Of a stretch of 59,925 bases of DNA, positions 5,227 to 51,732 are shown in pieces; the first letter of the stretch is position 1; every line of letters starts with the position of its first letter. A model generated the notes under the pieces. It was given only the letters and a program-made list of their open reading frames with translations, had not been told where the DNA came from and did no database searches. Source of the DNA: a virus (lineage: Duplodnaviria; Caudoviricetes); the IMG/VR virus record IMGVR_UViG_3300030333_004437, positions 1 through 59,925 of that record; one strand, written 5' to 3'. A program made the position numbers and the translations under genes.

Positions 5227-5364
5227 ATGGCAAGAACACTTGATGGAACAAAAGTAAGAAAACCAGTAAAGAAAAAAACCAGACAAGGTGCTGGTAGAGG
5301 AACTAAAAAAACTGCGATAAAACCTTATCGTGGACAAGGTGGTAAAAAAAGACGTGCAAAGTAA
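5227..5364 (+). CDS. Small basic 45-aa protein (not in the ORF track)
   Basis: MARTLDGTKVRKPVKKKTRQGAGRGTKKTAIKPYRGQGGKKRRAK; starts right after the thioredoxin stop; I recall the YRGQG motif from small proteins of T4-like aquatic phages. Confidence 0.6.
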   Translation: MARTLDGTKVRKPVKKKTRQGAGRGTKKTAIKPYRGQGGKKRRAK

Positions 5365-5998
5365 TTTTCTTAGATACGATGATAATTGGATTCACAATTA
5401 CTTGAATCCAATATTATCATCTGGCGCACCATCTGAATTAGTTTCTGAAGAAATAGAAAAAAATACAGTAGGTACAGATATACATCTAATGCCAATTTTT
5501 TCACAAAGGTTTTGTGATACTATTACAAAAATGGCTTCAGAAATGCCTGAACAAAATTGGACTAAAGGTAGACACGAACATTACCCAACCAACGATATAT
5601 TACTAAAAGATTTTGATGCTAGATTGTATGAAGTATTTCAGTCAGTTTTACAAAATTGGTTACTACCACACGCTTTAAACATATATCAGATAGCTGGTAA
5701 AAAAGCAGAAGATTTTGCTGATGAAACTTTTTTGGTTAGGTACACGATTGAGAATCAATCCTACTTAGATACACATATGGATAGTTCGTACTTTACATTT
5801 AATACATCATTGAATAATAATTTTATTGGTGGCGGAACTTATTTTAAAAAATACAACCTAACTTTACAACCTCAGCCAGGTTGGAGTGTTTTAGCACCAA
5901 GTTTAGTTACACACAAACACGGTGCAAGACCTATATCAGAGGGTGTACGATATATGTTGATATCATTTATACATCCTATTGTGCAACCAGCGTATTAG
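5330..5998 (+). CDS. 2OG-Fe(II) oxygenase, lysyl-hydroxylase(PLOD)-like
   Basis: FLVRY...HxDSS...GGGTYF...THKHGARPISEGVRY with HxD...H triad; the start may be the GTG at 5354. Confidence 0.8.
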   Translation: MDKVVKKDVQSNFLRYDDNWIHNYLNPILSSGAPSELVSEEIEKNTVGTDIHLMPIFSQRFCDTITKMASEMPEQNWTKGRHEHYPTNDILLKDFDARLYEVFQSVLQNWLLPHALNIYQIAGKKAEDFADETFLVRYTIENQSYLDTHMDSSYFTFNTSLNNNFIGGGTYFKKYNLTLQPQPGWSVLAPSLVTHKHGARPISEGVRYMLISFIHPIVQPAY

Positions 5999-6040
5999 AA
6001 AAAAAAATTGTATTTTAGAAAATAAGTTTATACTTATATT

Positions 6041-6500
6041 ATGTGTCTCGAATGACACAAAAGTTTTTTGACAATTTGAAATTTTGAGAAGTACGGAGAG
6101 TAATTAACTCTGTATGGGATTGGCTGAATAATGGGTAACCATAGGAAGCCCATAAGGCAATCCGCTTCAAGACTTGTGGTGAGTTGGTATTCGGCTAAAC
6201 GTTGACAATACCCTACGATAGTAGTTGGAGAAGGTACTTTCAGAATAAAATAAGAAGCGATTCTTATGACCTTGTTATGGGTAAGGGTAAAACTGAAATC
6301 CCATCTTAGTGGCTGAATCAATCTAAACTCAGAGAGATAAAGCAATACTACAGAGGTTATACTCACTCTGACGTAGACTAACCATCTATGAAGAGAATCA
6401 TCGTAACTGATGGGTAGTAGGTACAAGGGCAAATAAATCTGAGCGAGAAAGTTGTTGGTAATCGCTAATCCAACATCCCCATAAATTTCAAAATTTAAAA
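6041..6500 (+). ncRNA. Putative large structured non-coding RNA (class unassigned)
   Basis: No credible + strand ORF; GC-richer than the flanks; 10-bp closing stem 6075-6084/6483-6492, many internal stems, GNRA tetraloops (GUAA, GCGA), apparent pseudoknots; promoter-like motif upstream and long hairpin downstream. Confidence 0.7.
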
Positions 6501-6560
6501 AGTAGGGCACTAAATTTTTAGTTCTCACTATTTTAAAAACTTAAAAATTGGTGTCCTACT
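6501..6560 (+). terminator. Long imperfect hairpin; probable terminator or 3' processing stem
   Basis: AGTAGGGCACTAAATTTTTAGTT ... AACTTAAAAATTGGTGTCCTACT inverted repeat directly after the ncRNA candidate. Confidence 0.55.
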
Positions 6561-6578
6561 ATTTATTAACAGAAGAAT

Positions 6579-6670
6579 TCAGCGCTCAAATGAGGCTGAT
6601 ATAGTAAATGAGATATGATGTCGAAAGAATCAATCTCAAGTTTAGCGAAAGTAAACAACAGGAGAATACA
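6579..6670 (+). promoter_or_regulatory. Structured 5' leader of hsp20
   Basis: Three consecutive hairpins: TCAGCGCTC-AAAT-GAGGCTGA, TGAGAT..TC-GAAA-GA..ATCTCA and GTTTAGC-GAAA-GTAAAC, just before the AGGAG RBS. Confidence 0.5.
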
Positions 6671-7147
6671 ATGACTAAAGTAGTCTTTAAAAATCGCACA
6701 CTCCCTATGTTAGATAGGGATTCTTTTTTAACCCCCTTTGATAAAATGTTTGACCAGATAGTATCAGCTCAATTTCCTGAGATGACTAAAAGTGTTGGTG
6801 TCAATCCAATGCAAGGAACAGCATACCCAAAAGTCAACGTATATGAATACGATGATAAAGTTGGTGTTGTCGCTGAGATTCCTGGCTTAGATAAGAAAGA
6901 CTTATCTATTGATGTAGAGGATGGTATACTAACTATCGCTGGAAACAAACACGGATTGTTTGATGATGCAGGTGCAAAAGTAATTCGTAGAGAATTAAAA
7001 CAATCTTCATTCAAGAGACAATTTGAACTTGGTGAACTTCTCGATGGTAAGAAAATCAAGGCTTCATTCAAAGATGGATTATTATCCATTCAGATTCCGA
7101 AAGTGGAGCCAGCAAAGCCAGAGAAGCACTCAGTTAAAATCTCTTAA
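6671..7147 (+). CDS. hsp20: Small heat shock protein (Hsp20/alpha-crystallin)
   Basis: PKVNVYE...AEIPGLDKKD...GILTI...FKRQFEL...ASFKDGLLSIQIPK and C-terminal VKI motif; AGGAG RBS favours the ATG at 6671. Confidence 0.9.
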   Translation: MTKVVFKNRTLPMLDRDSFLTPFDKMFDQIVSAQFPEMTKSVGVNPMQGTAYPKVNVYEYDDKVGVVAEIPGLDKKDLSIDVEDGILTIAGNKHGLFDDAGAKVIRRELKQSSFKRQFELGELLDGKKIKASFKDGLLSIQIPKVEPAKPEKHSVKIS

Positions 7148-39122: not shown

Positions 39123-40071
39123 TACAATACTCAATATTTTATCTCGAGCGATTGGTTCAACATATACTAAATTAAAAAAGACAGATGAGTATATGTTCTG
39201 GTCACCATTCATAACTCATCATAAACCTAAATTACAGATAAACATCAAAAGTCAAAAGTGGCATTGTTGGGTATCAAATCAAGGTGGACATAACTTTTAT
39301 CAGTTATTTAAAGCAGTTGGTGTATCTCAATCTGATTGGAGTGATTTAAAAGAATATCTAAACGAACAAGATGATTACTATGTTGTAAAGACATCTAAAA
39401 ATCAAAAGATAAAGGTAAGCCTACCAAAAGAATTTAAAAGATTAAACTACGATACATTTAACACACCATTAGAAAAAAGATGTATAAACTTTCTAAAAGA
39501 AAGAGGATTTGACAATAATGATATAATCAGATATGGTGTTGGTTACTGTGAGAGTGGAGAATATTCAGATAGAATTATTATACCATCCTATGATAAAAAT
39601 GGTAGATTAAATTATTTTATAGCTAGAGATTTATACGATCGTGGTATGAAGTACAAGAACCCACCTGTAAGTAAGAATATCATTTGTTTTGAAATGTATA
39701 TTAATTGGGAAGAACCAATTATCTTATGTGAGGGTGTATTTGATGCTATGACAATAAAAAGAAATGCTATACCATTGTTAGGTAAGGTTATATCAAAAGA
39801 ATTGATGTTAGCTTTACTTGATAAAAAAGTAAAAGAAGCTTACATTGTTTTAGATGGTGATGCTAAGGTAGATTCTCTAAGACTTAGTAGAGACTTAGAA
39901 TCTTATGGTATACAAACTAAAATGGTAAAGATGGATAAAGATGATCCTAATGAATTAGGTTACAACAAAATATCCGAGAAAATAGATAATACAAATAAAC
40001 TAACTTTTAATGATATCATTAAATCAAAGTTAGAAGGAAGCGGTTTTGAAAAACGAAACAAGAGTTATTGA
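39115..40071 (+). CDS. DNA primase (TOPRIM)
   Basis: RIIIPSYD..G.LNYFIAR, KYKNP, CEGVFDA, LDGDA and DPNE motifs. Confidence 0.85.
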   Translation: MDNTILNILSRAIGSTYTKLKKTDEYMFWSPFITHHKPKLQINIKSQKWHCWVSNQGGHNFYQLFKAVGVSQSDWSDLKEYLNEQDDYYVVKTSKNQKIKVSLPKEFKRLNYDTFNTPLEKRCINFLKERGFDNNDIIRYGVGYCESGEYSDRIIIPSYDKNGRLNYFIARDLYDRGMKYKNPPVSKNIICFEMYINWEEPIILCEGVFDAMTIKRNAIPLLGKVISKELMLALLDKKVKEAYIVLDGDAKVDSLRLSRDLESYGIQTKMVKMDKDDPNELGYNKISEKIDNTNKLTFNDIIKSKLEGSGFEKRNKSY

Positions 40072-43000
40072 TACTTCAATAGATAAGTTAAAAAGAATAT
40101 ATCATATATCAGATATACAAATAAGAAATCTTAAAAGACATAAAGAATTTGAATTAGTATTCAATAAACTTTATGAAGAGATAAAAAAACAACCTGAAGA
40201 TAGTGTTGTTTATATTGGTGGTGATATAGCACATAGTAAAACAGAGATGTCGCCTGAGTTAGTAGACCAGTTGTCGAGGTTATTTAAAAACTTATCTGAT
40301 ATAGTTCCAACAATAATAATCGCAGGTAATCACGATTGTAATCTAAATAATCAGCATAGATTAGATGTATTGACACCGATTGTAGAGAATCTAAATCATC
40401 CAAATCTATATTACTTTAAAGATAGTGGTGTCTACAAGTTTGCTGATGTATCATTTGTTGTATGGGATGTTTGGGATAAAGAAGAAGATTATCTTAGAGC
40501 TGAGAATGTAGAGGGTGATACCAAAGTATTGTTGTATCACGGAACAGTAGACCAATCACTAACAGATTTAGGTTTTAAACTACCAAGTAAAGTTAAGATG
40601 GAAAGTATGGATGGGTTTGATATGGTTTTACTTGGCGATATTCATAAGATGCAAACATTACAAGAGTATGATAAATCAAGTGGTAAACCTATTATAAGAT
40701 ATTGTGGTTCCTTAGTACAACAAAACTATGGAGAAGCATTATTAGGACACGGAATATCTGTTTGGGACGTTGAATCACGTACATTTACACATAAAGAACT
40801 TCCTAATGATTATGGGCATATAACTATTGATGTAGTAGATGGAAAGATTGTTACTGAAGATTGGGCGACTTTGGTTCCAAAAAATGGTAGGTTAAGATTA
40901 CGTTCTAAAAATACAACTGATACAGAATTAAAAAAGGTATTATCAATTATAAAAAATGATAATCCTAAATTATCAGAAAGTAAAATATATAAAGTAGATA
41001 GTATTATAACAGATAATTCTACAGGCAATAAAATAAGCATTGGTGATGTATCTAATGTGGATTACCAAAACGAATTAATTTTAAACTACGTAAAAGATGA
41101 ATACTTTGTAGATGATAATACTGAACTAAAGATAAAAGAAATCAATGATGAATTAAATCAAGTATTACCAGAAGAAGATGTACAACGAAATATAAATTGG
41201 AAGATAAAGAAATTTGAGTTTGATAATATGTTTAGTTATGGAGAAAACAATGTAGTTGACTTTACTAAACTAAATGGAATTATTGGAGTATTTGCACCTA
41301 ATGCTAGTGGTAAATCTGCTATGTTAGATGCACTATCGTTTTGTTTATTTGATAATTGTAGTAGAGCTTACAAAGCAGAGATGGTTTTAAATAATAAAAA
41401 AGATAGGTTTAGATGTAAGCTAAATATAGAAATTGATGGTGTAGATTACTACATTGAAAGAAAAGGTAAAAAACAACGTAATGGACACGTAAAAGTAGAT
41501 GTTAATTTTACTAGGTGGGATGAATCACTAAATCAAATGATATCTATGAATGGTGACCAAAGAAGAACAACTAACAACAACATTAAAAATGTTATTGGTA
41601 ACTACGATGATTTTCTTTTAACAACATTATCATCTCAGAATAACTCAGGTATATTTCTTGATAAAACACAAAAAGAAAAGAAAGAATTATTAGCTCAATT
41701 TATGGGTATTGGTGTGTTTGATAAGTTATGGCAGTTAGCATCTGAGAAAGTAAAAGAAGAATCAGCTATATTAAAAAGTTTTCAAAAATCTAACTTTGAA
41801 GATGAGCTAACTACAACAATGTCATTAATAGATTCAGAGAAAATAAAACTAAAAGATTTTACAAATCAATTACAAAAGATTGAGGAAGAAAAGAGTGATG
41901 AAGAAAGTAAAAGATTTAAGTTAGTATCAGAATTAAAACCTATTGATAATGTAAAAGATATTGAAGAACTAAATGAAAACTTAGAAGATGTAAAATTAAA
42001 AACTAAAAGTTTAGCTGATGAGTTTTCTAATACAGAAGAAAGAATAGAAGAAGTAGAAAACGAAATAAAAAAGAATAAAGTTAATATTACAAAGCCAGAT
42101 TTATCTGAACTTGAAAATGAGAAAAGAAATTTACTTAATTACGAAAAGTTAATACTAACCTTAGAATCAGAAATACAAGTTGAACAAGGCGCTATTGATA
42201 AATTACAAAGTTGGAAATGGAATGAAGATTGTGATGCTTGTACAACTAATCCATTTGTAAAAGATGCTAAAAACGCTATTGAATCTATTCAATTACATAA
42301 AGAGCAGAGAACAGAATATTTGTCGGATATAGAAAAGATAAAAAATAAAGTGAATAGTTTAGAATTAAAAGAAGATGAGTATAACGCATTAACAAAGATA
42401 GTAGAAAACTTAAATATAAAATTACAAAAACTATCAAATAACAAAGAAGTAATCATAGAAAAAGCTAAATCCTTAAAACAAAACAAAAAGTATATCTTAG
42501 AAGATATAGATAAGTTTGAAAGACAAAAAAAATCTATTATACACAATAGAATTGTAGAGAAAAAAATAGAGGAATGTGATACAGAGATTAGTATACTAGA
42601 ATCTGGTATTAAGGAATATGCTGGTAAAAAATATGATGCTGATAAAAATATAGCAGTATTAGATAGTAAAAGAAAAGGTTTGTTAAAGAGTATTAGTGAA
42701 ATGGAAGAGTTAGAAGATAAGGTAGGTGCTTATCAATACTACTTAAGCGCTGTTAGTAGGGATGGTGTTCCATATAAACTAATACAAGATGCTTTACCAA
42801 CTATAGAGGGCGAGGTGAACAATATCCTATCTCAAATCGTAGATTTTGGTATTATTTTCGAAATGGATGGGAAAACCATCAACAATCATATTGTTTATGA
42901 TGATGATAATATCTGGCCTCTTGAGTTATCAAGTGGTATGGAAAGATTCATATCATCACTCGCTCTCCGAGTTGGTTTAATAAATGTATGTAATCTACCA

Positions 43001-43210
43001 AGAGGTAACTTCCTCGCTATAGATGAGGGATTTGGCTCTATGGATAGTGATAACCTAAACTCTATATACAACTTCTTTCAGTATCTAAAAACACAATTCC
43101 AATTTGTTGTTATTGTATCTCATATCGAACAAATGAGAGATACTGTAGATACACTATTAGAAATCAAAAAACAATCAGGCTATAGTAATATTAACTTTGG
43201 ATTCTCTTAG
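40046..43210 (+). CDS. Fused Mre11/SbcD nuclease - Rad50/SbcC ATPase
   Basis: HISDIQ, GGDIAH, AGNHD, LGDIHK phosphoesterase motifs; Walker A PNASGKS, coiled coil with CDAC hook, SSGME signature and IDEGFG Walker B. Confidence 0.9.
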   Translation: MKNETRVIDTSIDKLKRIYHISDIQIRNLKRHKEFELVFNKLYEEIKKQPEDSVVYIGGDIAHSKTEMSPELVDQLSRLFKNLSDIVPTIIIAGNHDCNLNNQHRLDVLTPIVENLNHPNLYYFKDSGVYKFADVSFVVWDVWDKEEDYLRAENVEGDTKVLLYHGTVDQSLTDLGFKLPSKVKMESMDGFDMVLLGDIHKMQTLQEYDKSSGKPIIRYCGSLVQQNYGEALLGHGISVWDVESRTFTHKELPNDYGHITIDVVDGKIVTEDWATLVPKNGRLRLRSKNTTDTELKKVLSIIKNDNPKLSESKIYKVDSIITDNSTGNKISIGDVSNVDYQNELILNYVKDEYFVDDNTELKIKEINDELNQVLPEEDVQRNINWKIKKFEFDNMFSYGENNVVDFTKLNGIIGVFAPNASGKSAMLDALSFCLFDNCSRAYKAEMVLNNKKDRFRCKLNIEIDGVDYYIERKGKKQRNGHVKVDVNFTRWDESLNQMISMNGDQRRTTNNNIKNVIGNYDDFLLTTLSSQNNSGIFLDKTQKEKKELLAQFMGIGVFDKLWQLASEKVKEESAILKSFQKSNFEDELTTTMSLIDSEKIKLKDFTNQLQKIEEEKSDEESKRFKLVSELKPIDNVKDIEELNENLEDVKLKTKSLADEFSNTEERIEEVENEIKKNKVNITKPDLSELENEKRNLLNYEKLILTLESEIQVEQGAIDKLQSWKWNEDCDACTTNPFVKDAKNAIESIQLHKEQRTEYLSDIEKIKNKVNSLELKEDEYNALTKIVENLNIKLQKLSNNKEVIIEKAKSLKQNKKYILEDIDKFERQKKSIIHNRIVEKKIEECDTEISILESGIKEYAGKKYDADKNIAVLDSKRKGLLKSISEMEELEDKVGAYQYYLSAVSRDGVPYKLIQDALPTIEGEVNNILSQIVDFGIIFEMDGKTINNHIVYDDDNIWPLELSSGMERFISSLALRVGLINVCNLPRGNFLAIDEGFGSMDSDNLNSIYNFFQYLKTQFQFVVIVSHIEQMRDTVDTLLEIKKQSGYSNINFGFS

Positions 43211-43361
43211 CAGGTAATTTTACAGTACCTGTCGGTTTCTTATCTAAACTTAGTATTAAACGAGTTAATACTGCAGACATTGTAGTATAGTTATCCTTAG
43301 AGTATTCCTCTAATTTCTGTTTTACTTTTTTATCTAAAGTAAAATTATATCTTTTTTTCAT
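43191..43361 (-). CDS. Ribbon-helix-helix (CopG-like) DNA-binding protein
   Basis: MKKRYNFTLDKKVKQKLEEYSKDNYTTMSAVLTRLI, a beta-strand/helix/helix pattern. Confidence 0.65.
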   Translation of the reverse strand: MKKRYNFTLDKKVKQKLEEYSKDNYTTMSAVLTRLILSLDKKPTGTVKLPAKRIQS

Positions 43362-43425
43362 ATATACACACCCAATACACACTTTTATAATAATTATATG
43401 TAAGTAGTGATATTTATTTACAACT

Positions 43426-46400
43426 ATGGCTTTAATTCGCAAAACAGTAAAAAAACAAAATCTAAATCAAGTACAAGTTTTTGTAGAGGATACTAATAAT
43501 ACCTACTTTAATTTACTTGATTTACCACCCGTAATTCCTACTGGTCGTTCTTCTATATTAATAGATGGTTCTGATACTCTTAAAAAAGAAACGGATATTC
43601 TATATGAATTAGTAGATGCTAATGGAGAACCGATTTACGTAAATCCTATTAGAAATTACTTAGAGGGTACATCAAGAAGATTAACTATAGAGGTTTACGA
43701 AAACGCACCAGCTGGTTTAGCTACACTTACATTATTAGGTGAGATTAATCCTGACCCAAATTTAAATGGTGGAATAGAAATACCACCAGAATTTCAAGGT
43801 GTTTACAATGTAAGATATCAAGCACAAATTTTATTAGACCCAGCAGCTCCTAACAATGAAAAGATTATATTTTTAAGAGCACCAAAAATATCTGTATCTG
43901 AAACATTAGTAAAAGAGGTAATTCCAAGAGTAGGTGAACGAGAAGTAAACATACAAATAAGTGGAAGTTTATCAGGTAAAAGAGTTCCGTTTGGTGTACA
44001 ACAATTTTTAAATCCGTGGTTGATTCAACCAGGTAATATTGAGTTAGATTTTCTTGATGATACAAAACCAACGGGTGTTTTAAGAAATAGAAAATATGAA
44101 GTTAAGTTAAAAGCTAGTGTAGATGGTGCAGTAAAAAATGTAAACTTCGATTGGGGTGATGGTACTACAGATACATTTAATCCACAAAATATAAATGGAA
44201 CTCATACATATACAAAGGCTGGAACTTATACAGTAAGAGCAGTTGGTAATTCACCATTTGGTTTTGGTGGTAAAGATGATGTAACAATCACAGTAAACCC
44301 ACCAGCAACACCAAGTGCTAGTATGATTATATCGGATGGTACTATTAATGAAGCCTCTGCTAATGAAACTGAATACCTAACTGGTAGTTTAGACCCAATC
44401 AAAGATACTAACTTTACACGAGCTAGATTTAGATTTAGTGATAGAAGTATTATTTCTGCTAGTAGTGATGTATCAAATAATCCAGATGATAATTTAGATG
44501 ATACAACATTTGTTTGGGAGTTCGGTGATGGTAGAGTTCTTGAGGTAACAGGTTCTGCAGGTAGAAAGGTAATACACGAGTATACAGGTAGTGGAACATA
44601 TACTGTAAAACACACTGTTAAAAATAATTACGATGCACAAAGTGATGTTGTAAGTAGAACTATATTAGTTGCACCTAATCCACCTGTCGCAGATTTTACA
44701 ATATCTAATTCAGTAGTTACTTCTAGCACTAACTTTAATGTTACTTCTTCTGCAACAGTTGGTAGTGGTGCAGAAATTGATAATTTTTATTGGTATTTTG
44801 ATAGAGCCCGTCCAACTGGTAGCCAGTTTTTAAATTATGCACCTAATGGTATATTTGGTAGTGCTTTAAGTGGATTTTGGGATGGGTATAGTGTAGGTAA
44901 CTCAAGTGTAACAAGACAATCAAGTGTTAAGTATAGTGGTTCACACGCTTTAGCACAAGCACCAAATGCTGATGAGGCTTACTACGGACACTATCGTGGT
45001 AGTAGTACTGCTAATCTAGCACCAGCTACTCAATCGGATGGATTTACGATAGATGCTTATGCTAGATGTGATAGTGGTAATGCTTTTGTTAGCCTAATGT
45101 TATTTGGTTTAGATGAGAATTTTGAAACTATAGGTTCTTTAGATGACCAATTTGGTAACATTGTTGAATCACCATTAACACAAGTAAACTCAAGTGGTTG
45201 GACGAGATTGCAAGTTCATAGTAGATTTTTACATCCATCTACAAAGTATGCAAGTTTTAGGATAAATGCTAAACAGAGTTCTGGTAAAACAGTATATTGG
45301 GATGGGTTTGAATTATACAAAACTACTGTAACAGGCTCTGCAGTTTCAGCATCGTATCAAGCAGCTGGTAATTATAATATTGAACATTGGGCTATAGATT
45401 CTCTTGGTAGAAAATCAAATGTAGCTATTAAACAAGTTGTTAATACTCATACAATACCTCGTCCACATTTTTCTGTTAATAACTCTGAGGGAGTTGCACC
45501 TCTTACTGTTAGATTTACAGAGGATGGAGATGGAAGTCCTACTTCAAGAATTTTAAAAACTGGCATATCTGATATAGAGATGTCAGCATCTTCACAAACT
45601 TCCGATATAACTTATACTGAACCAGGAACTTACACACCAAGAATAGAGGCTTCATTTACAGGTGGTACAAAAACATTTATAGGCGCACCCATACGAGTAG
45701 GACAACCTGTTCCAAATATAGATGTTGTATCAGGTTCTTCTACAGTAGAAACAGGACAAGAATTTACTCTTGTAGTTAGTGGTAGTTCTAATCAAGTTTC
45801 ATCTACGCCTGGTCAGCTTAAACAGATATCAGTAGCTTGGGGAGATGGTTCAAGTGATTTACTTACGTATCCAAATGGTATAACATTAAAAGGTACTAAT
45901 TCATCTAGCGCAGATTTTACTCACACATATACTACTGCTGGTAGTTACAAAGCTAGTATTGTTGCAACTGATGCAGCTGATATAGCATCAGTAAGTAGTA
46001 GTTTAGCAGTTACAGTTAACGCTTCTACTGCAGTAGTATTGAATGATACCGATATAATAATAGATGATGATACGGTTAGTAATACACCTACTGCATCACT
46101 ATCATTTGGAAATCATACAGCAATAACAAGAGCTAATGCATCACATAGTGCTGCTTACGCAACTGAGATTACTGCTTACACTTGGAGTTTAAATGATTCG
46201 GATGGTGCTGAACTAACTCGACTTGGACACGGAAAAAATGTAGATTTTATAGTTGATGATAGTGATATAAAATCTGTTGGCTTACAAGTTGGTGTACACG
46301 GAGTGCAAAGTAATAAAGTTTATTACCAACTTAATGCTGTAGACACGAGTGGTGATGCTAAAGAAAATGCAGTTACTCAAGATGATGATAACAATTATGA

Positions 46401-49400
46401 TGATGGACAATCACAAGATTCTAACTCAGATAGAAACGCATCTAACTCAGGACAAAATAGTGATAATGATGGTACGTATGATACAAGTGGGGATGATAGA
46501 TACGATGAACAACAAAATGCTGGTAGTCCTATTGTACAAGATTATGAAATTACTTTAGATAGTTTATCAGGTAATAGAAAAGTAGGTAACTCAATTTATG
46601 GTGCTAAAGTAAAAGTAGATAGATATGAACTCTTAGATTTTGCTAAAGGTGCAGGATATACTGTTACTGATTTAATAAGTCAAAACTTACCTTATGAGTT
46701 TGATATAGCTGATATACAAAATGGTAAGATAATACCATCTGCCAAACCCTTAGTTTTCAACAATACAGTAGCTGATTTATCTAAAAAGTTAATTGAAATT
46801 CCTGATTTAGCAAGTTCACCATATACTATGAGTTTTAACGAGACTCAAGAGTATGATTTTAACGAAGTTAATTTTATATCGAAAACAAATATTAGATTAT
46901 CTAATCTAAGAACTGTATCAGGTGATGTTTACAGAGCAAAAGTTTACTATAAAACAAGAAATGATTCTGAATATAAGTTTTTAACAGAAAGAGTTTTAGA
47001 AGCTAGAGAAGAACTCGTAGATAAGTTACATCTAAAAGGTAGATTGATGAAAGGTTTCTTCCCAACATCATCTATATTCACATCGTATTGGTCGGGTTCA
47101 CAAGGTACAGAAGCTGGATATATAGGTGGGAATGAAAGAGGGCTTCTTATAGAAATGACAGGTTCAACTGCTAGTGTATCTGACATAACAGATTCAATTC
47201 TAATATCAGGTTCTAACTATTCAGAAAAAGATAATGTAGCACTTTGGTTAAAAGATACATCTACAAGAAATGTGGCTACCAAAGGTAATGTATCAGCTGA
47301 AAATCGTCCTTTAATATTTGGAGGACAAGAATATAGTTTAAGATTTAATGCTAAACCTATAAAAGCTCCTAAACAAGTTAGGGAAAATGATAGTTTAGTT
47401 GAAAGACAAAAGGCAGAATTAAAAGTTTACGTATCTGGTTCTGGTTTGAATCTAACCAATAAAGGTGCTGATTTCAAATCTACACCGTGGGGTTACTTAA
47501 TAGGTATAGTAAATCCTGATGATAAAGGTCCTGATGCTAATATTACATTTCCAAAGAGTGTATACCAAAACTTTATCTTAGAGGATACAGCTAGAGCCAC
47601 TTTACAATTTGTAGCTACCGCTGGTAGATGGTACATTAATAATGTTTCATTAAGACAAGCTAGAGAATCAGGCTTTAATCCAAACAATATGGATATAATA
47701 ACTGATACGCCAGAATTAACACAACGTCCTCAAAAGATAACTTATAAAGTAGAGTACTTTACAAAAGATGGTAAGCAAGCTGACTTAGTAACTTACACAC
47801 CAAACTCTACTGATATACAAGGAAGTAATACGGTATTTTCTGGTGATGACAATGTTATGCCTGGCACCCTTACAATTAATAATGGATTAGGTGAGGGGCA
47901 AGGGTTTGAATTAAGTGGACAGAGTTCAGCTTACTTTAGAACTAAATCATACAAAGGATTTGAAAAAGCTACTACAGGTGAAGGTCCGCCTGGTATTATT
48001 ATGTTTAGTGGTAGTGTTGGTGAATCTATAGATTCAGCTGAAACTTACGATGGATTGGGATTAGAATTACACGCTGGTGGAGATGAGGGTTCACTTAAAT
48101 TTAGAAGTAATCCAAGTGTCTTTGAAGTAAAAGCTAAATCATTTTTCTTAGGTAGTGATTCTCAATTTGTAAGTGGTAGTGGTGGTAATATAGAAATAAG
48201 TTCTTCAAACTTTCATTTATCATCAAGTGGAGATGTTGCAGTAAAAGGTAATATAAAAGCTGAAACAGGTGAGATTGGTGGATTCACGATAGGTAGAGAA
48301 AAGTTATCTGGTGAAACCTTTTACTTGAGAGGTAATGCAGATGAGACATCTACAACTGATACCGGTATATTTATAAGTTCATCTAACTTTCAAGTTAGAG
48401 CTAGTGGTGAATTAAGTGCTAGTGCTGGTAATATTGCAGGATGGAATATAGGTGGTGCAACATTAGAATCAGATAATATAATATTCAGTAGTACAGGTTC
48501 AATTAGAACAAAAGATTATGTTCCAAAACAAAAAGGTTGGGCTATAGATGATATAGGTTTTGCTGAGTTCTCAAATGTATTTGTAAGGGGAACGTTAGCT
48601 ACAACAACCTTTGAGAAACAAACTGTTAATGCAGTTGGTGGTAGATTACTTGTAAGTAATGCTACTACTATAAGTGGTAGTGTTGGTGCTAGTGCTACAG
48701 CGATTCCAGTTCAAAACGCTGCAGGATTTAGACCTGGTGAATTACTATTTTGTAAGAAAGTAGATGATACAGGCTTTAACTCTGAGTTCTTAAAGTTAAC
48801 AGCTGCTTTCTCTGCATCAGACCAAACAGGTAACTCTACTGGATTTGACCACGCTCTATCAGCCTCAAGAGCAGCTGCTGGTAGTGTTACAGGCTCTATA
48901 GGTAACTTTAGTGGAGAAACTTCTGCAGCTACCACATATGAGGATGGACAAGTTATTATTAGTTTTGGAAGACCAGGTACAGGATTCATAGATATAAATG
49001 CTAATCCTACTGATACCGATACACCATACATAGATATTGTAGAATCAGGTAGTGGTGGATTTTCAAGAAAAGCTAGGTTAGGAGATTTAGGTGGATTAGC
49101 TGGAACAGGTGCTGTATTCGGTGCAGCAAATCCTGGCTTTGGTTTAATGTCAGAAAATGTTTTCTTATCAGGTAGAGTTAGTGCAACAGAGGGTAATATA
49201 GGTTCTTGGAATATTACAAATACAGGTTTAATTACAGGTAGTAACATAACACTTGATGCAAATAGTTCAAGGATATTTAAAACAGATGAAAATGGTGAAT
49301 TGGATGGATACTACATTGATTTTACACCAACTGGTTCAAATTTTTATGTAAGGTTTGGAACGGATTTTGCAGTATCTTCAAGTGGACAATTATTTGCTAG

Positions 49401-51732
49401 TGGTGCAAAAATAGAGGGTGTACTAACCTCATCATTAGGTTTGATTGGTGGTTGGACTATTGGTTCATCTACATTGACAGGTGGAGATGTTACTCTAAGT
49501 TCTGATGGTTCTGTAAAAGCTGGAACTTTAGCTAATGCTAGTACAGTAGCAACTACTAACAAAGGATTTTTTGCAAGTGGAAGTGGTGATGTATTAATTA
49601 AAGGAGATGATAATAATACAAATTATATTAAGTTTGATGCTGATGGTGGTAATGGTGCTTTAGAAATAAAAACAGGCAACTTCTCAGTAGATAGTAGTGG
49701 AGATGTTTCGATATCAGGAGAGATAACGGCACAAACTGGAACTATTGGTGGATTCAATATCGGTACTGATTTAGATGCTTCATCAGGCACATTGAAATTA
49801 AAAGGAGCTAGTGGACAACTTACAGCTTCAGCTGCTCAGATTACAGGTAATATAACTGCTACAAGTGGTCAGATAGGCGGCTTTACAATAGATTCCACAA
49901 CCATATCAGGAAGTGATTTAGTAGTTTCTTCTTCTAGAGGTGGTGCTATAAAGTTAGGGGCTGCCGTTGTTTCAGGAAGTTCTACAAGCGTTACTGGCTC
50001 AGATGGTATCTATCTAAGTGGTAGTGGTGATTTTAGTTTCCAAAGAGGAGACTCATTTCTTAAAGGAACATCTGCTGGTTTAGCTATGAACTTTCCATCA
50101 TTTAGTATTAATACTGCTGGTGATATAAACGCTCAGTCAGCTCAAATAGCAGGAGACATAGCTGCTACATCAGGTTTCTTTGGTTCGAGTGAAACTAATG
50201 GTTGGCTTATCGATGGTAATAAGATTCGTAATGTGGGAAATGTATCTGGTTCGATAGAAATAGATGCTACATCCGATTCACCAAATATCACAATCACGAG
50301 TGGAAGCTTTATTGGTGAATTAGTTCCTAACTTTACACCAGCTGCTACCATATTACAAGCTGGTGGTAAATCATCTAGTCATACAGGTATGTCAGATAAT
50401 ACACCATCAGGAAATAGAACTCAGGCTACAAGTTTAACTATAAACAATGGACAGACATCTTCACCTATATTTCTATACGCTGGTGATTCAGGTTCGGGTG
50501 ATAATACAATATTTTCAGCTGAGATAGCCTCATCTTCTGGAAGTGTTGATTTAAAAACACTATCAGCTGGTTCAAAATATAAAAGTACTGCAACACTAAA
50601 GATTGAGGTAACTATAGCTACACCAAATCACGATAGTGGTGAATACAATATTGGTTTATCTGGAACCCATACCATATCTGGTAGCTTAAAGTTAATGAGA
50701 AAGCAAAGTTCTACATATACTGAGGTGGATAATATATCTATAGGTCAGACTGTGTTTCCATCTGGTGGTGGAAGTAGTGATAGTACAACGTTTACCACAA
50801 CAAAAAATGTATCAGTTGACCACACTGGTGCTGCTGAGGGTTACTATTTTGAATTACATCAATTAAAAGTTACTAATAATGCTTTACAAGAAAATTGGTC
50901 TATTTTAAGTCCATTTAAAGAATTTACACAAGCAACGAGTATAGAATCTATTAAGGCTTACTTTACTTCAGTTAAACACGAACCAAGTAACAAAAAGACA
51001 GAATTAGCACCATCTGGATTTCAAACTATAGCATTAACAGATACTACACTTGCTAATGAGGCTAATGCTTATTTCCGCGCAGCACCCGAAGAAGATAAAA
51101 CCGTAGAAATATTAGGTTCAACTCACCTAACAGGTTCATTGATTGTTAGTGATTTCGCTGATGCAAAGGGATTCATAAGACTTGCAGATAATGGTAGTAC
51201 AGGCACAGGTGTATCATTACAATTTGGTTCTACTCCAACAATCGCTAGAGCAAATGGTTTCTTTTTACAAGAAAGTACTGGCGTAAGTCAACAACCACAA
51301 GGTTTAATACTAAATGGACACGGTAGTTCAACTCAAACTGAACTATTTGCATTTGGACGTGATGGACATCTTCACGTTAAGGATGACGTAACTGCATTCT
51401 CAACATCGGTAGGCTCTGATAGGAGATTAAAAGAAAATATAAAACCATTAGAAAATAATTTAGAAAAAATATTAGAATTAAAACCATCATCATTTAGATG
51501 GAAGATAAATCAAAAGAAAGATGATGTGGGTTTAATTGCTCAAGAGGTTGAACCTATTTTACCTGAAGTTGTTAAGGAAGTACATTCGATAGGAAATGAG
51601 GTTGTGGATTTAACTGGTGAGATACATCATAAAACTATTGATTACTCTAAGTTAACAACTTTCTTAATTGGTGCAATTCAAGAACAACAAAAGCAGATTG
51701 ATGAACTAAAGAAAAAACTTGAGGAGTTGTAA
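43426..51732 (+). CDS. Giant tail fibre/adhesin (2768 aa) with PKD repeats and C-terminal S74 intramolecular chaperone
   Basis: Repeated (W)xFGDG...HxYxxxGxYTV PKD motifs, a CBM-like insert, GxIGGFxI repeats and terminal SDRRLKENI...GLIAQEV...DYSKL...AIQEQQKQI. Confidence 0.85.
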   Translation: MALIRKTVKKQNLNQVQVFVEDTNNTYFNLLDLPPVIPTGRSSILIDGSDTLKKETDILYELVDANGEPIYVNPIRNYLEGTSRRLTIEVYENAPAGLATLTLLGEINPDPNLNGGIEIPPEFQGVYNVRYQAQILLDPAAPNNEKIIFLRAPKISVSETLVKEVIPRVGEREVNIQISGSLSGKRVPFGVQQFLNPWLIQPGNIELDFLDDTKPTGVLRNRKYEVKLKASVDGAVKNVNFDWGDGTTDTFNPQNINGTHTYTKAGTYTVRAVGNSPFGFGGKDDVTITVNPPATPSASMIISDGTINEASANETEYLTGSLDPIKDTNFTRARFRFSDRSIISASSDVSNNPDDNLDDTTFVWEFGDGRVLEVTGSAGRKVIHEYTGSGTYTVKHTVKNNYDAQSDVVSRTILVAPNPPVADFTISNSVVTSSTNFNVTSSATVGSGAEIDNFYWYFDRARPTGSQFLNYAPNGIFGSALSGFWDGYSVGNSSVTRQSSVKYSGSHALAQAPNADEAYYGHYRGSSTANLAPATQSDGFTIDAYARCDSGNAFVSLMLFGLDENFETIGSLDDQFGNIVESPLTQVNSSGWTRLQVHSRFLHPSTKYASFRINAKQSSGKTVYWDGFELYKTTVTGSAVSASYQAAGNYNIEHWAIDSLGRKSNVAIKQVVNTHTIPRPHFSVNNSEGVAPLTVRFTEDGDGSPTSRILKTGISDIEMSASSQTSDITYTEPGTYTPRIEASFTGGTKTFIGAPIRVGQPVPNIDVVSGSSTVETGQEFTLVVSGSSNQVSSTPGQLKQISVAWGDGSSDLLTYPNGITLKGTNSSSADFTHTYTTAGSYKASIVATDAADIASVSSSLAVTVNASTAVVLNDTDIIIDDDTVSNTPTASLSFGNHTAITRANASHSAAYATEITAYTWSLNDSDGAELTRLGHGKNVDFIVDDSDIKSVGLQVGVHGVQSNKVYYQLNAVDTSGDAKENAVTQDDDNNYDDGQSQDSNSDRNASNSGQNSDNDGTYDTSGDDRYDEQQNAGSPIVQDYEITLDSLSGNRKVGNSIYGAKVKVDRYELLDFAKGAGYTVTDLISQNLPYEFDIADIQNGKIIPSAKPLVFNNTVADLSKKLIEIPDLASSPYTMSFNETQEYDFNEVNFISKTNIRLSNLRTVSGDVYRAKVYYKTRNDSEYKFLTERVLEAREELVDKLHLKGRLMKGFFPTSSIFTSYWSGSQGTEAGYIGGNERGLLIEMTGSTASVSDITDSILISGSNYSEKDNVALWLKDTSTRNVATKGNVSAENRPLIFGGQEYSLRFNAKPIKAPKQVRENDSLVERQKAELKVYVSGSGLNLTNKGADFKSTPWGYLIGIVNPDDKGPDANITFPKSVYQNFILEDTARATLQFVATAGRWYINNVSLRQARESGFNPNNMDIITDTPELTQRPQKITYKVEYFTKDGKQADLVTYTPNSTDIQGSNTVFSGDDNVMPGTLTINNGLGEGQGFELSGQSSAYFRTKSYKGFEKATTGEGPPGIIMFSGSVGESIDSAETYDGLGLELHAGGDEGSLKFRSNPSVFEVKAKSFFLGSDSQFVSGSGGNIEISSSNFHLSSSGDVAVKGNIKAETGEIGGFTIGREKLSGETFYLRGNADETSTTDTGIFISSSNFQVRASGELSASAGNIAGWNIGGATLESDNIIFSSTGSIRTKDYVPKQKGWAIDDIGFAEFSNVFVRGTLATTTFEKQTVNAVGGRLLVSNATTISGSVGASATAIPVQNAAGFRPGELLFCKKVDDTGFNSEFLKLTAAFSASDQTGNSTGFDHALSASRAAAGSVTGSIGNFSGETSAATTYEDGQVIISFGRPGTGFIDINANPTDTDTPYIDIVESGSGGFSRKARLGDLGGLAGTGAVFGAANPGFGLMSENVFLSGRVSATEGNIGSWNITNTGLITGSNITLDANSSRIFKTDENGELDGYYIDFTPTGSNFYVRFGTDFAVSSSGQLFASGAKIEGVLTSSLGLIGGWTIGSSTLTGGDVTLSSDGSVKAGTLANASTVATTNKGFFASGSGDVLIKGDDNNTNYIKFDADGGNGALEIKTGNFSVDSSGDVSISGEITAQTGTIGGFNIGTDLDASSGTLKLKGASGQLTASAAQITGNITATSGQIGGFTIDSTTISGSDLVVSSSRGGAIKLGAAVVSGSSTSVTGSDGIYLSGSGDFSFQRGDSFLKGTSAGLAMNFPSFSINTAGDINAQSAQIAGDIAATSGFFGSSETNGWLIDGNKIRNVGNVSGSIEIDATSDSPNITITSGSFIGELVPNFTPAATILQAGGKSSSHTGMSDNTPSGNRTQATSLTINNGQTSSPIFLYAGDSGSGDNTIFSAEIASSSGSVDLKTLSAGSKYKSTATLKIEVTIATPNHDSGEYNIGLSGTHTISGSLKLMRKQSSTYTEVDNISIGQTVFPSGGGSSDSTTFTTTKNVSVDHTGAAEGYYFELHQLKVTNNALQENWSILSPFKEFTQATSIESIKAYFTSVKHEPSNKKTELAPSGFQTIALTDTTLANEANAYFRAAPEEDKTVEILGSTHLTGSLIVSDFADAKGFIRLADNGSTGTGVSLQFGSTPTIARANGFFLQESTGVSQQPQGLILNGHGSSTQTELFAFGRDGHLHVKDDVTAFSTSVGSDRRLKENIKPLENNLEKILELKPSSFRWKINQKKDDVGLIAQEVEPILPEVVKEVHSIGNEVVDLTGEIHHKTIDYSKLTTFLIGAIQEQQKQIDELKKKLEEL

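What the first reader, a model, noticed from the sequence alone, without database searches (positions are those of the whole stretch)
6041..6500. Candidate large ornate non-coding RNA with multiple pseudoknots
Seen: the largest non-coding gap in an otherwise wall-to-wall coding window, GC-richer than its flanks. Pairings readable by eye: 5' hairpin TGTGTC/GACACA (6042-6059); closing stem TTTGAAATTT 6075-6084 with AAATTTCAAA 6483-6492; TACGGAG/CTCTGTA; GGATTG 6117/CAATCC 6158; ATGG-GTAA-CCAT; ATAAGAA-GCGA-TTCTTAT (6250-6267); long-range CCTTGT 6270/ACAAGG 6423; ATGGG 6277/CCCAT 6300; CAGAG/CTCTG; TGTTGG 6453/CCAACA 6470. Two loop pairings would form pseudoknots: CTCAGA 6328/TCTGAG 6438 and AGCGA 6442/TCGCT 6462. 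It is bracketed by a TACTTATA promoter-like word (6031) and a long hairpin (6501-6560), so it looks like an independent transcript. Known: phages carry large ornate RNAs such as GOLLD and ROOL whose function is unresolved. Inference: this is a compact relative or a new class. It lacks tmRNA ends and the RNase P GAGGAAAGUCC motif.
Basis: partly seen in the sequence, partly recalled or inferred. Interest (0 to 1): 0.85.

Follow-up and report, generated by a model that had tools for sequence, protein, structure and literature searches.

The report
Nested double manA RNA in phage
The gap holds a real, intricately folded non-coding RNA of about 400 bases that belongs to the known but still unexplained manA family, here in an undescribed doubled form carried by uncultured marine phages.

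Summary
Window 5999-6607 is the largest non-coding gap. Positions 6075-6492 (+) fold into a conserved RNA of 22 core helices plus two pseudoknots. Across 21 homologues 96.1% of pair cells are paired, against 33-45% when partners are slid, and 68 of 111 pairs show compensatory changes. A set of 77 gives the same picture.

It is not a new class. Rfam's manA model (RF01745) matches 6282-6479 at 57.3 bits (cut-off 55.2) and 6092-6307 at 29.9 bits.

Covariation shows the two manA-like cores are nested, not side by side. One outer helix (6116-6120/6475-6479) spans both, and the second core sits inside the P4 stem of the first. I found no description of this doubled form in print, but supplements were closed.

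The minus-strand ORF is not conserved.

The RNA lies between a promoter-like block and a conserved hairpin. It sits upstream of a gp32-like SSB gene in 68 of 77 relatives and upstream of hsp20 here.

Function is unproven. I favour a separately made, folded RNA particle (a 2026 preprint shows manA RNAs forming cages in vitro) over a riboswitch.

The parts
6014..6042 (+). promoter-like block (TTTAGA-17-TATTAT; TATATT at 6035-6040)
   Evidence: The consensus scan found it, but the region has no more such sites than shuffles do. An alternating TA block sits at the same place in relatives. Of 73 relatives with upstream sequence, 66 have a (TA)3+ run, 42 a sigma70 -10-like hexamer and 18 TATAAATA. 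TTGACT-N18-TATATT is clear in L197 and L199. Function not shown.
6042..6069 (+). 5' hairpin TGTGTC/GACACA (6042-6059), then AAAG and a U run (6063-6069)
   Evidence: Terminator-like by the scan. Relatives have a hairpin of different sequence (GTATC/GATAC, ACGC/GCGT, ATTACTTA/TAAGTAAT). It is absent in L002, L193, L195 and L192. AGTTTTTTGACAA is at least 90% conserved.
6075..6492 (+). the whole conserved fold (double-core manA-family RNA), closed by P0 6075-6084/6483-6492
   Evidence: 111 pairs, 96.1% of cells paired against 33-45% when slid, 68 pairs with compensatory change. In the 77-member set, 94.8% against 42-45%. P0 forms a 7-11 bp duplex in 18 of 18 testable relatives, mean z -2.5.
6091..6115 (+). 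P1 hairpin; its loop holds the self-complementary hexamer TAATTA 6101-6106
   Evidence: 99.4% paired, 3 covarying pairs. The loop has a palindrome of 6 nt or more in 53 of 77 (TAATTA or TTATAA), against 11.7% of shuffled loops. 12 of 77 have none.
6116..6120 (+). 5' strand of outer helix A (GGGAU); pairs with AUCCC 6475-6479
   Evidence: 100% paired: GGGAU/AUCCC 61, GGAAU/AUUCC 15, GGGAU/AUCCU 1. The tandem-type partner 6298-6302 shows no compensation and mismatches in those 15.
6123..6158 (+). outer P2 with CUGAAUAA (6124-) and UAAGGCAAU (6153-)
   Evidence: Matches the manA consensus GaCUGAAUAA...UAAgG. Stems 6123-6125/6156-6158 and 6131-6136/6148-6153 are 98-100% paired with 6 covarying pairs.
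6165..6230 (+). outer P3 multi-hairpin junction (P3a loop GUGGUG at 6176; variable middle hairpin; P3c 6212-6225)
   Evidence: Helices 7-9: 96-99% paired, 13 of 14 pairs covary. GUGGUG is the manA consensus loop.
6236..6243 (+). 5' strand of helix B (the manA P4 stem); pairs with 6444-6452
   Evidence: 97.5% paired, 4 covarying pairs. GGUAC before it and UU+P5 after it match the manA consensus around P4.
6250..6267 (+). hairpin h (ATAAGA/TCTTAT); its loop GCGA 6257-6260 kisses the P5 loop UCGC 6462-6465 (pseudoknot 2)
   Evidence: 98.7% paired against 19-47% when slid; 3 of 4 pairs compensatory. 7 combinations in 77 members, 100% paired.
6270..6428 (+). inner core closed by helix C (CCUUGU 6270-6275/ACAAGG 6423-6428): hairpin 6277-6304, P2' with CUGAAU (6313-), P3' 6346-6419
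   Evidence: Helix C is 99.2% paired with 3 covarying pairs, and shows 16 combinations in 77 members. Inner helices are 93-100% paired. The Rfam manA match 6282-6479 scores 57.3 bits.
6328..6333 (+). pseudoknot 1: P2' loop CUCAGA pairs with UCUGAG 6438-6443
   Evidence: 100% paired with 3 covarying pairs. 8 combinations in 77 members.
6454..6479 (+). P5 hairpin 6454-6458/6470-6474 and 3' strand of helix A (6475-6479)
   Evidence: 100% paired; 3 covarying pairs and 4 of 5 in the 77-member set.
6502..6559 (+). long conserved hairpin (GTAGGGCAC/GTGTCCTAC base; interior TTTTTAGTTCTCAC...ACTTAAAAA)
   Evidence: The base covaries. The interior occurs once in the window. Of 54 relatives with the interior, 51 have at least 7 T in 8 after it. 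The window has only 6 of 8. It is also present without the RNA in L018, and lies 8 nt before a tRNA gene in L199.
6671..7147 (+). downstream gene: small heat-shock protein (HSP20/IbpA type), RBS AGGAG 6660-6664
   Evidence: Pfam HSP20 E 3.8e-20. Relatives align from residue 1 at 6671. Positions.
6034..6528 (-). 164-codon minus-strand ORF: not a gene
   Evidence: No Pfam family. The longest stop-free run on that strand is 71 codons in the 90%-identical L002 and 42-102 in the other 19.

Best explanation
Shown: 6075-6492 (+) encodes one folded RNA of about 418 nt that is a doubled member of the manA family. The outer unit has every manA element: P1, closing helix GGGAU/AUCCC, P2 with CUGAAUAA, a three-hairpin P3, the P4 stem, a P4-loop/P5-loop kissing contact, and P5. 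A second P2-P3 core with its own hairpin and closing helix is inserted into the 3' side of P4. That inner core is tied to the outer unit by a further pseudoknot.

Inferred (about 0.5): the RNA is made as its own transcript. It would start at the AT-rich promoter-like block near 6035, begin with the small 5' hairpin, and end or be processed at the conserved hairpin 6502-6559. It would then act through its three-dimensional shape, probably as a self-associating RNA particle of the kind manA RNAs form in vitro, rather than as a ligand-sensing leader of hsp20. In this window the hairpin has a weak U run, so some read-through into hsp20 is likely.

What the particle would do in infection is not known.
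For: Identity:
- manA is the only Rfam family over its cut-off in the window (57.3 against 55.2 bits).
- There is a second full-length match at 29.9 bits, E 1.8e-7.
- Relatives score 56.7-70.8 bits.

Structure:
- RNAalifold gives 93 pairs, 58 of them compensatory.
- My model gives 111 pairs, 96.1% paired against 33-45% when slid, and 0 of 500 shuffles reach it.
- The 77 unique members give 94.8% against 42-45%, with 84 of 115 pairs compensatory against 31-37 when slid.

Nesting:
- Helix A pairs 6116-6120 with 6475-6479, with 15 compensated sequences. The tandem-type partner 6298-6302 is mismatched in those 15.
- Helices B and C enclose the inner core.
- Pseudoknot 2 matches the complementary CUGU/ACAG loops in the Rfam consensus line.

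Separate transcript:
- 51 of 54 relatives with the conserved hairpin interior have at least 7 T in 8 after it.
- A second promoter-like block and an RBS precede the downstream gene.
- The same RNA stands before gp32-like SSB (68 of 77), hsp20 (2), a 673-aa protein (2) and tRNA genes in divergent relatives.
- L018 has the same hsp20 leader without the RNA.
- Contigs from 4 of 4 RNA-library runs laid (2 studies) cover about 6089-6437.

Particle idea:
- The preprint 10.64898/2026.07.01.735769 (abstract, sections 7-8 and other passages read) reports manA 60-mers, decamers and octamers held by kissing loops.
- The P1 loop is self-complementary in 53 of 77, and the TAATTA to TTATAA swap keeps the palindrome.
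Against: - The Rfam score is only 2 bits over the cut-off, and the outer half alone is below it.
- No transcript end is shown. The RNA runs are contigs, which cannot show starts, ends, strand or level, and DNA may be present in such libraries.
- The promoter-like block is heterogeneous, and the region has no more sigma70-like sites than shuffles.
- In the window the U run after the hairpin is degenerate (6 of 8).
- In L199 the hairpin lies 8 nt before a tRNA with no U run, so it is not always a terminator.
- The RNA is always co-oriented with, and in 63 of 68 SSB cases within 60-277 nt of, the next gene. A cis-acting leader would look the same.
- Cage formation is in vitro only, shown for single-core RNAs under 200 nt, and comes from a preprint.
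- 12 of 77 P1 loops have no palindrome, some being GACG tetraloops, and the 77 sequences are related rather than independent.
Confidence: 0.5

Rival explanations
1. Cis-acting riboswitch or attenuator. The double manA fold senses a metabolite or physical signal and sets how often transcription passes the conserved hairpin 6502-6559 into hsp20 (SSB in most relatives). Two cores would give a sharper or two-input response.
For: Rfam and Weinberg 2010 (PMC2864571, section 12 read) class manA as a cis-regulatory riboswitch candidate found before ibpA chaperone and nucleotide-synthesis genes. Here it lies 171 nt before hsp20 and is co-oriented. It is within 60-277 nt of SSB in 63 of 68. A hairpin with a U run follows the fold. 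GGGAUUG can pair with either CAAUCC 6158-6163 or AUCCC 6475-6479, a possible switch.
Against: No ligand is known for manA. I found no conserved pairing that competes with the hairpin. The hairpin also occurs without the RNA (L018) and directly before a tRNA. A second promoter-like block lies between the hairpin and the gene. Downstream genes are unrelated in function. The preprint shows cage-forming behaviour not expected of an aptamer.
Confidence: 0.33
2. A DNA-level mobile intergenic cassette (promoter plus stem-loop module that shuffles by recombination), with the RNA fold incidental.
For: Presence/absence at one site: L018 joins GACAAT directly to TTAAATTTCC. The same module stands before four kinds of downstream genes. 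Promoter-like and hairpin blocks repeat on both sides.
Against: 84 of 115 base pairs keep pairing through compensatory changes, which only selection on the RNA explains. The hairpin interior occurs once in 60 kb, so it is not a dispersed repeat.
Confidence: 0.05
3. The minus-strand ORF 6034-6528 (164 aa) is a real gene, and the pairings are chance in AT-rich DNA.
For: The frame is open in the window.
Against: It is broken in all 20 relatives: 71 codons at most in L002 at 90% identity, 42-102 in the others. There is no Pfam family. Substitutions follow base-pairing, not codons.
Confidence: 0.01

Closest known systems
manA RNA motif (Rfam RF01745; Weinberg et al. 2010, PMC2864571)
   Same: The covariance model matches over its cut-off. 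Shared features are CUGAAUAA...UAAGG in P2, the GUGGUG loop, the three-hairpin junction, the GGUAC linker, the P4/P5 loop contact, the closing GGGAx/xUCCC helix, a marine phage origin, and a position before an ibpA/hsp20 gene.
   Different: The length is about 418 nt against 192. A second P2-P3 core is nested inside P4, with an extra closing helix, an extra pseudoknot and an outer stem P0. Scores are 57 and 30 bits, against 100.6 reported for cyanophage S-CREM1. The nearest isolates of the carrier phages are Microcystis phage Mel-JY01 and Flavobacterium Immutovirus, which lack manA. The usual neighbour is a gp32-like SSB gene.
Two-domain riboswitches (glycine, NAD+-I; review PMC9481103)
   Same: Two homologous folded domains in one RNA upstream of a gene.
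   Different: Those domains lie side by side and bind known ligands. Here one domain is inside a helix of the other and no ligand is known. The review's main text has no occurrence of 'manA'.
Multimer-forming ornate RNAs: manA cages (preprint 10.64898/2026.07.01.735769); ROOL, GOLLD, OLE (recalled)
   Same: Phage-borne, highly structured, with invariant loops, kissing-loop contacts and no known function.
   Different: No Rfam match to ROOL, GOLLD or OLE. Assembly of this doubled form has not been tested. The preprint's RNAs are single-core and under 200 nt.
Promoter-early stem-loop (PeSL) cassettes of T4-type phages (Arbiol et al. 2010; recalled, not read here)
   Same: The unit is flanked by promoter-like and stem-loop blocks and is present or absent at one site.
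   Different: It carries an RNA gene rather than an ORF. The similarity is by recall only and was not tested.

Membership tests
manA RNA (RF01745) | Covariance-model score at or above the gathering score of 55.2 bits | tested here: met
   6282-6479 scores 57.3 bits. 6092-6307 scores 29.9 bits and is below the cut-off on its own.
manA RNA (RF01745) | P2 with conserved CUGAAUAA bulge and UAAgG | tested here: met
   Present twice: 6124-/6153- and 6313-/6338-. The stems covary.
manA RNA (RF01745) | Multi-hairpin junction P3 with GUGGUG-type first loop | tested here: met
   The outer loop is GUGGUG at 6176 and the inner is GUUAUA. All junction helices are 93-100% paired with covariation.
manA RNA (RF01745) | Closing helix GGGaG/CuCCC around P2-P5 | tested here: met
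   GGGAU 6116-6120 pairs with AUCCC 6475-6479, 100% paired with 15 compensated sequences. It spans both cores.
manA RNA (RF01745) | P4 hairpin whose loop can pair with the P5 loop (CUGU/ACAG in the consensus line) | tested here: met
   GCGA 6257-6260 pairs with UCGC 6462-6465, 98.7-100% paired with 7 combinations. The reading of the consensus loops is mine.
manA RNA (RF01745) | Single domain of about 190 nt | tested here: not met
   The fold is about 418 nt with a second core nested in P4.
manA RNA (RF01745) | Lies in the 5' UTR of the downstream gene (cis-regulatory) | tested here: inconclusive
   It is upstream and co-oriented, but followed by a terminator-like hairpin and a second promoter-like block. 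No transcript ends are available.
manA RNA (RF01745) | Forms closed homo-oligomers (preprint) | not testable with these tools
   The only hint is the self-complementary P1 loop in 53 of 77.
GOLLD / ROOL / OLE / HEARO large RNAs | Match to the family's covariance model | tested here: not met
   None is among the matches at gathering score or at E up to 10 on 5950-6700.
tmRNA, RNase P, group I/II introns, tRNA | Match to the family model or ARAGORN | tested here: not met
Metabolite riboswitch (generic) | Ligand binding, and an expression platform with mutually exclusive pairing | not testable with these tools
   An alternative pairing of GGGAUUG is possible, but I found no pairing that competes with the hairpin.

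The most novel reading that the evidence does not exclude
The doubled manA RNA is a stand-alone, abundantly made phage RNA whose two covalently nested cores form one building block of an RNA-only assembly (cage or ring) in infected cells. The inner core would take the place of a second subunit. The invariant loops, namely the self-complementary P1 loop and the 18-nt loop of hairpin 6277-6304, would be the contact points. The assembly would act beside the phage's SSB/RecA replication-recombination module.
Probability: 0.2. Interest if true: 0.8.

Novelty: new variant of a known kind. Interest (0 to 1): 0.55.

Why it matters
manA has been an orphan RNA since 2010. A 2026 preprint now suggests it builds RNA cages.

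A natural form in which two cores are fused one inside the other offers three things:
- a second, richly covarying alignment (77 or more members) for modelling the fold;
- a test of which contacts are within and which between molecules;
- evidence that the family extends beyond T4-like cyanophages, to a group of uncultured low-GC marine myoviruses where it usually precedes the SSB-RecA module.

It also shows that Rfam's 192-nt model splits such RNAs into two overlapping partial hits. One of those hits is below the cut-off, so doubled forms are easily misread as a single weak manA.

Tried and rejected
- blastn of 5900-6700 against 50,697 phage records found nothing.
- Of the 80 hsp20 loci, only L002 holds the RNA full-length; L001 and L022 are cut by contig ends. 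Rfam on 20 of the 80 found manA only in L002. The hsp20 route therefore gave too few homologues, and DNA patterns were used instead.
- The first pattern was too loose: most of its 114 stretches were chance matches.
- My regex extraction of helices and two hairpin anchors failed or misled and were replaced by alignment-based counts. Hand-indexed coordinates were off by one and were corrected from the alignment.
- RNAalifold did not return P0, hairpin h or the two pseudoknots. I added these and tested them.
- Further column runs flagged (64-68/316-320, 73-78/232-237, 92-95/246-249, 303-307/416-420) compete with well-supported helices and were not adopted.
- A self-kissing P1 loop is only a hint.
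- The AAA ATPase, hsp20 and SSB searches gave no close isolate.
- Mel-JY01 and immuto have about 110-nt gaps before SSB and no manA.
- RNA runs: no contig covered 5800-6081 or 6458-6598, and none of the listed pieces bridged the RNA to hsp20. The two joints in X17 (6134>6231, 6303>6395) join equivalent places of the two cores and are probably relatives or mis-joins.
- Literature: searches, plus passages, gave no mention of a tandem, nested or doubled manA. The supplements of Weinberg 2010, the S-CREM1 paper and the preprint could not be seen and may bear on this.

Full report
**What is at the site.**
- The stretch 5999-6607 is the largest part of the 59.9-kb window without a + strand ORF of 60 aa or more. 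It is 609 nt, and the next largest is 228 nt.
- It lies between a weakly 2OG-Fe(II)-oxygenase-like ORF (5330-5998) and a small heat-shock protein gene. That gene gives Pfam HSP20 at E 3.8e-20, and its start is at 6671 behind AGGAG 6660.
- GC is 0.375-0.395 over 6100-6499, against 0.30-0.345 beside it.
- The + strand folds to -116.3 kcal/mol, z -2.51. The minus strand gives z -1.89.
- The window holds no tRNA or tmRNA.

**Family.**
- A scan of both strands of the whole window against 4227 Rfam families gave one match at gathering score: manA (RF01745) at 6282-6479 +, 57.3 bits against a cut-off of 55.2.
- At E up to 10 on 5950-6700, nothing else of note appeared. There were only chance-level hairpin matches to 6490-6565.
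- A search of the record with the same model found a second full-length match at 6092-6307, 29.9 bits, E 1.8e-7.
- manA was described in 2010 as a riboswitch candidate of marine metagenomes, two gamma-proteobacteria and T4-like cyanophages. [quoted passage not shown]
- An hsp20/ibpA neighbour is therefore a known context.

**Homologues.**
- Searching through Hsp20 gave 80 loci, of which only L002 holds the RNA whole. L018 has the same flanks joined without it.
- A motif pattern, then blastn, found full-length homologues at 70-90% identity over about 440 nt in 33 viral-contig loci. Twenty of these are unique.
- A more specific pattern raised the set to 77 unique members, the window included.
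- One copy lies on a 16-kb phage-like contig binned into a Candidatus Pelagibacter MAG. It has the same RNA-SSB-RecA order.

**Structure.**
- RNAalifold on 21 sequences predicted 93 pairs, 58 of them with compensatory changes.
- I added the closing stem P0, hairpin h and one pseudoknot, giving 111 pairs in 23 helices.
  - 96.1% of cells are paired, against 33.5-45.3% when the 3' partners are slid by 1-3 columns.
  - 68 pairs change on both sides, against 15-20 when slid.
  - 0 of 500 shuffles reach the observed values.
- A scan for further covarying column runs found a second pseudoknot. The loop GCGA 6257-6260 of hairpin h pairs with UCGC 6462-6465 in the P5 loop, 98.7% paired against 19-47% when slid, with 3 of 4 pairs compensatory.
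- On the 77-member alignment, 115 pairs are 94.8% paired against 42-45% slid, and 84 pairs are compensatory against 31-37.
- P0 forms a 7-11 bp duplex in 18 of 18 testable relatives.

**Nested, not tandem.**
- The model's own alignment of the first half pairs GGGAU 6116-6120 with AUCCC 6298-6302.
- Fifteen sequences have GGAAU there. In those, the 6298-6302 equivalent stays AUCC(C/U), which is a mismatch, while the distal 6475-6479 becomes AUUCC.
- So one closing helix spans both cores.
- After the outer P3 and the linker GGUAC, ACUUUCAG 6236-6243 pairs with 6444-6452, which is followed by UU and P5. This is the place of the P4 stem in the manA consensus.
- Inside that stem lie:
  - hairpin h, the P4 tip, whose loop kisses P5 as the consensus loops CUGU/ACAG could;
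  - then, closed by CCUUGU 6270/ACAAGG 6423, a hairpin with an almost invariant 18-nt loop, a second CUGAAU-type P2 and a second three-hairpin P3.
- The loop of that inner P2 (CUCAGA 6328) pairs with UCUGAG 6438, between helices C and B.
- The two cores share 80 identical positions of 147 aligned columns, with an alignment score about 3 sd above shuffles.
- Double matches also occur in more distant relatives: G001 at 44.7 + 19.3 bits, and G002 at 40.2 + 26.4 to 28.6 bits. The single 70.8-bit hit in G003 is, on inspection, the same double form.

- Eight of twelve are supported and four are not.
- The minus-strand ORF of 164 codons is open only in the window: 71 codons in L002 and 42-102 elsewhere.

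**Surroundings.**
- Upstream of the fold, relatives share an A run and an alternating TA block.
  - 66 of 73 have (TA)3 or more.
  - 42 have a sigma70 -10-like hexamer, such as the window's TATATT 6035.
  - 18 have TATAAATA.
- After that block come, usually, a small hairpin of varying sequence and AGUUUUUUGACAA.
- L197 and L199 show a plain TTGACT-N18-TATATT.
- Downstream lies a hairpin of about 58 nt. Its base covaries and its interior (UUUUUAGUUYYCAC...ACUUAAAAA) is nearly invariant.
  - 51 of the 54 relatives with that interior have at least 7 T in 8 after it. The window has 6 of 8.
  - The interior occurs only once in the window.
  - It is also found without the RNA (L018), and 8 nt before a tRNA gene with no U run (L199).
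- Between the hairpin and the next gene lies a second, similar promoter-like block with its own small hairpin and an RBS.
- The next gene, by count over the 77:
  - a gp32-like SSB followed by RecA in 68;
  - hsp20 in 2 (the window and L002's contig);
  - a 673-aa protein without a Pfam family in 2;
  - not found in 5.

**The phage.**
- The window has a baseplate wedge protein, an SbcCD-like fusion and an AAA ATPase.
- The nearest isolates by SSB and ATPase are Microcystis phage Mel-JY01 (53-56% aa identity) and Flavobacterium phage immuto (43%).
- Neither has manA, nor a large gap before SSB.
- The carriers are therefore an uncultured low-GC marine myovirus group, not the T4-like cyanophages named for manA.

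**RNA libraries.**
- Near-identical DNA stands in 14 marine metagenome runs of 8 studies, one of which may be the source.
- Contigs of four metatranscriptome runs from two studies cover about 6089-6437. Many of them are from relatives of the family.
- In run X16, contigs carry letters that I recall as sequencing adapter directly before 6096 and 6100. That is a weak hint of frequent fragment ends there.
- One X17 contig runs on upstream through a relative's P0 strand.
- These are contigs, so they show presence in RNA libraries and nothing about ends, strand or level.

**How it may work.**
[quoted passage not shown] These are built from pentamers held by kissing loops and a GNRA-receptor contact.
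- Four observations fit a separately made RNA particle better than a leader that senses a ligand:
  - the unit's own terminator-like hairpin;
  - the second promoter-like block;
  - the variety of downstream genes, tRNA included;
  - the presence/absence at one site.
- I put the stand-alone particle reading at about 0.5 and the riboswitch/attenuator reading at about 0.33.
- The self-complementary P1 loop fits intermolecular kissing. It is TAATTA or TTATAA in 53 of 77, and the swap of positions 2 and 5 keeps the palindrome. However, 12 of 77 loops have no palindrome.
- The alternative local pairing GGAUUG/CAAUCC remains possible in most sequences and could be part of a switch.

**Verdict.** This is a real, well-supported structured RNA. 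It is a member of a known orphan family in a doubled, nested form that I did not find described, though supplements were closed. Its function is open.

Noticed in passing
window 6502-6559; L018, L199, L198: The 58-nt hairpin after the RNA has a nearly invariant interior (TTTTTAGTTYYCAC...ACTTAAAAA) and a covarying base. It occurs once in the window. It is present upstream of hsp20 even where the manA RNA is absent (L018), and lies 8 nt before a tRNA gene in L199. It may be an element in its own right, such as a processing or binding site, rather than a plain terminator.
   Followed up: partly
window 6575-6670: The hsp20 leader has two further small hairpins (about 6583-6604 TCAGC/GCTGA and about 6617-6646 GAGAT/ATCTC) just before the RBS. 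They are kept, with changed letters, in L002, L018 and L001. For a heat-shock gene these could be a thermometer-like leader.
   Followed up: no
L001:103-190: One relative carries an extra GC-rich insert of about 85 nt between the 3' end of the manA fold and the conserved hairpin. Its nature is unknown.
   Followed up: no
L197 (G003) and L199 (G002): In two divergent relatives the double manA RNA is followed within about 100-200 nt by a tRNA gene on the same strand. There the RNA sits among RNA genes rather than before a protein gene.
   Followed up: partly
L299 (NHJA01000041.1): A 16-kb contig binned in a Candidatus Pelagibacter MAG carries the same RNA-SSB-RecA block, with SSB and RecA about 90% aa-identical to those of locus L193 and GC of 0.32. 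It is probably a phage contig binned by composition, and at most a faint hint at a SAR11 host.
   Followed up: partly
window 5227-5364: A 45-aa ORF is extremely rich in Lys/Arg (MARTLDGTKVRKPVKKKTRQGAGRGTKK...) between the thioredoxin-like gene and the 2OG-oxygenase-like ORF.
   Followed up: no
window 40046-55922: An SbcD-SbcC-like fusion of 1054 aa is followed by two very large ORFs of 2768 and 1396 aa. The large ORFs were not examined.
   Followed up: no
window 6608-6670: The mechanical ORF list starts hsp20 at ATG 6608. Relatives and the RBS place the start at 6671.
   Followed up: yes
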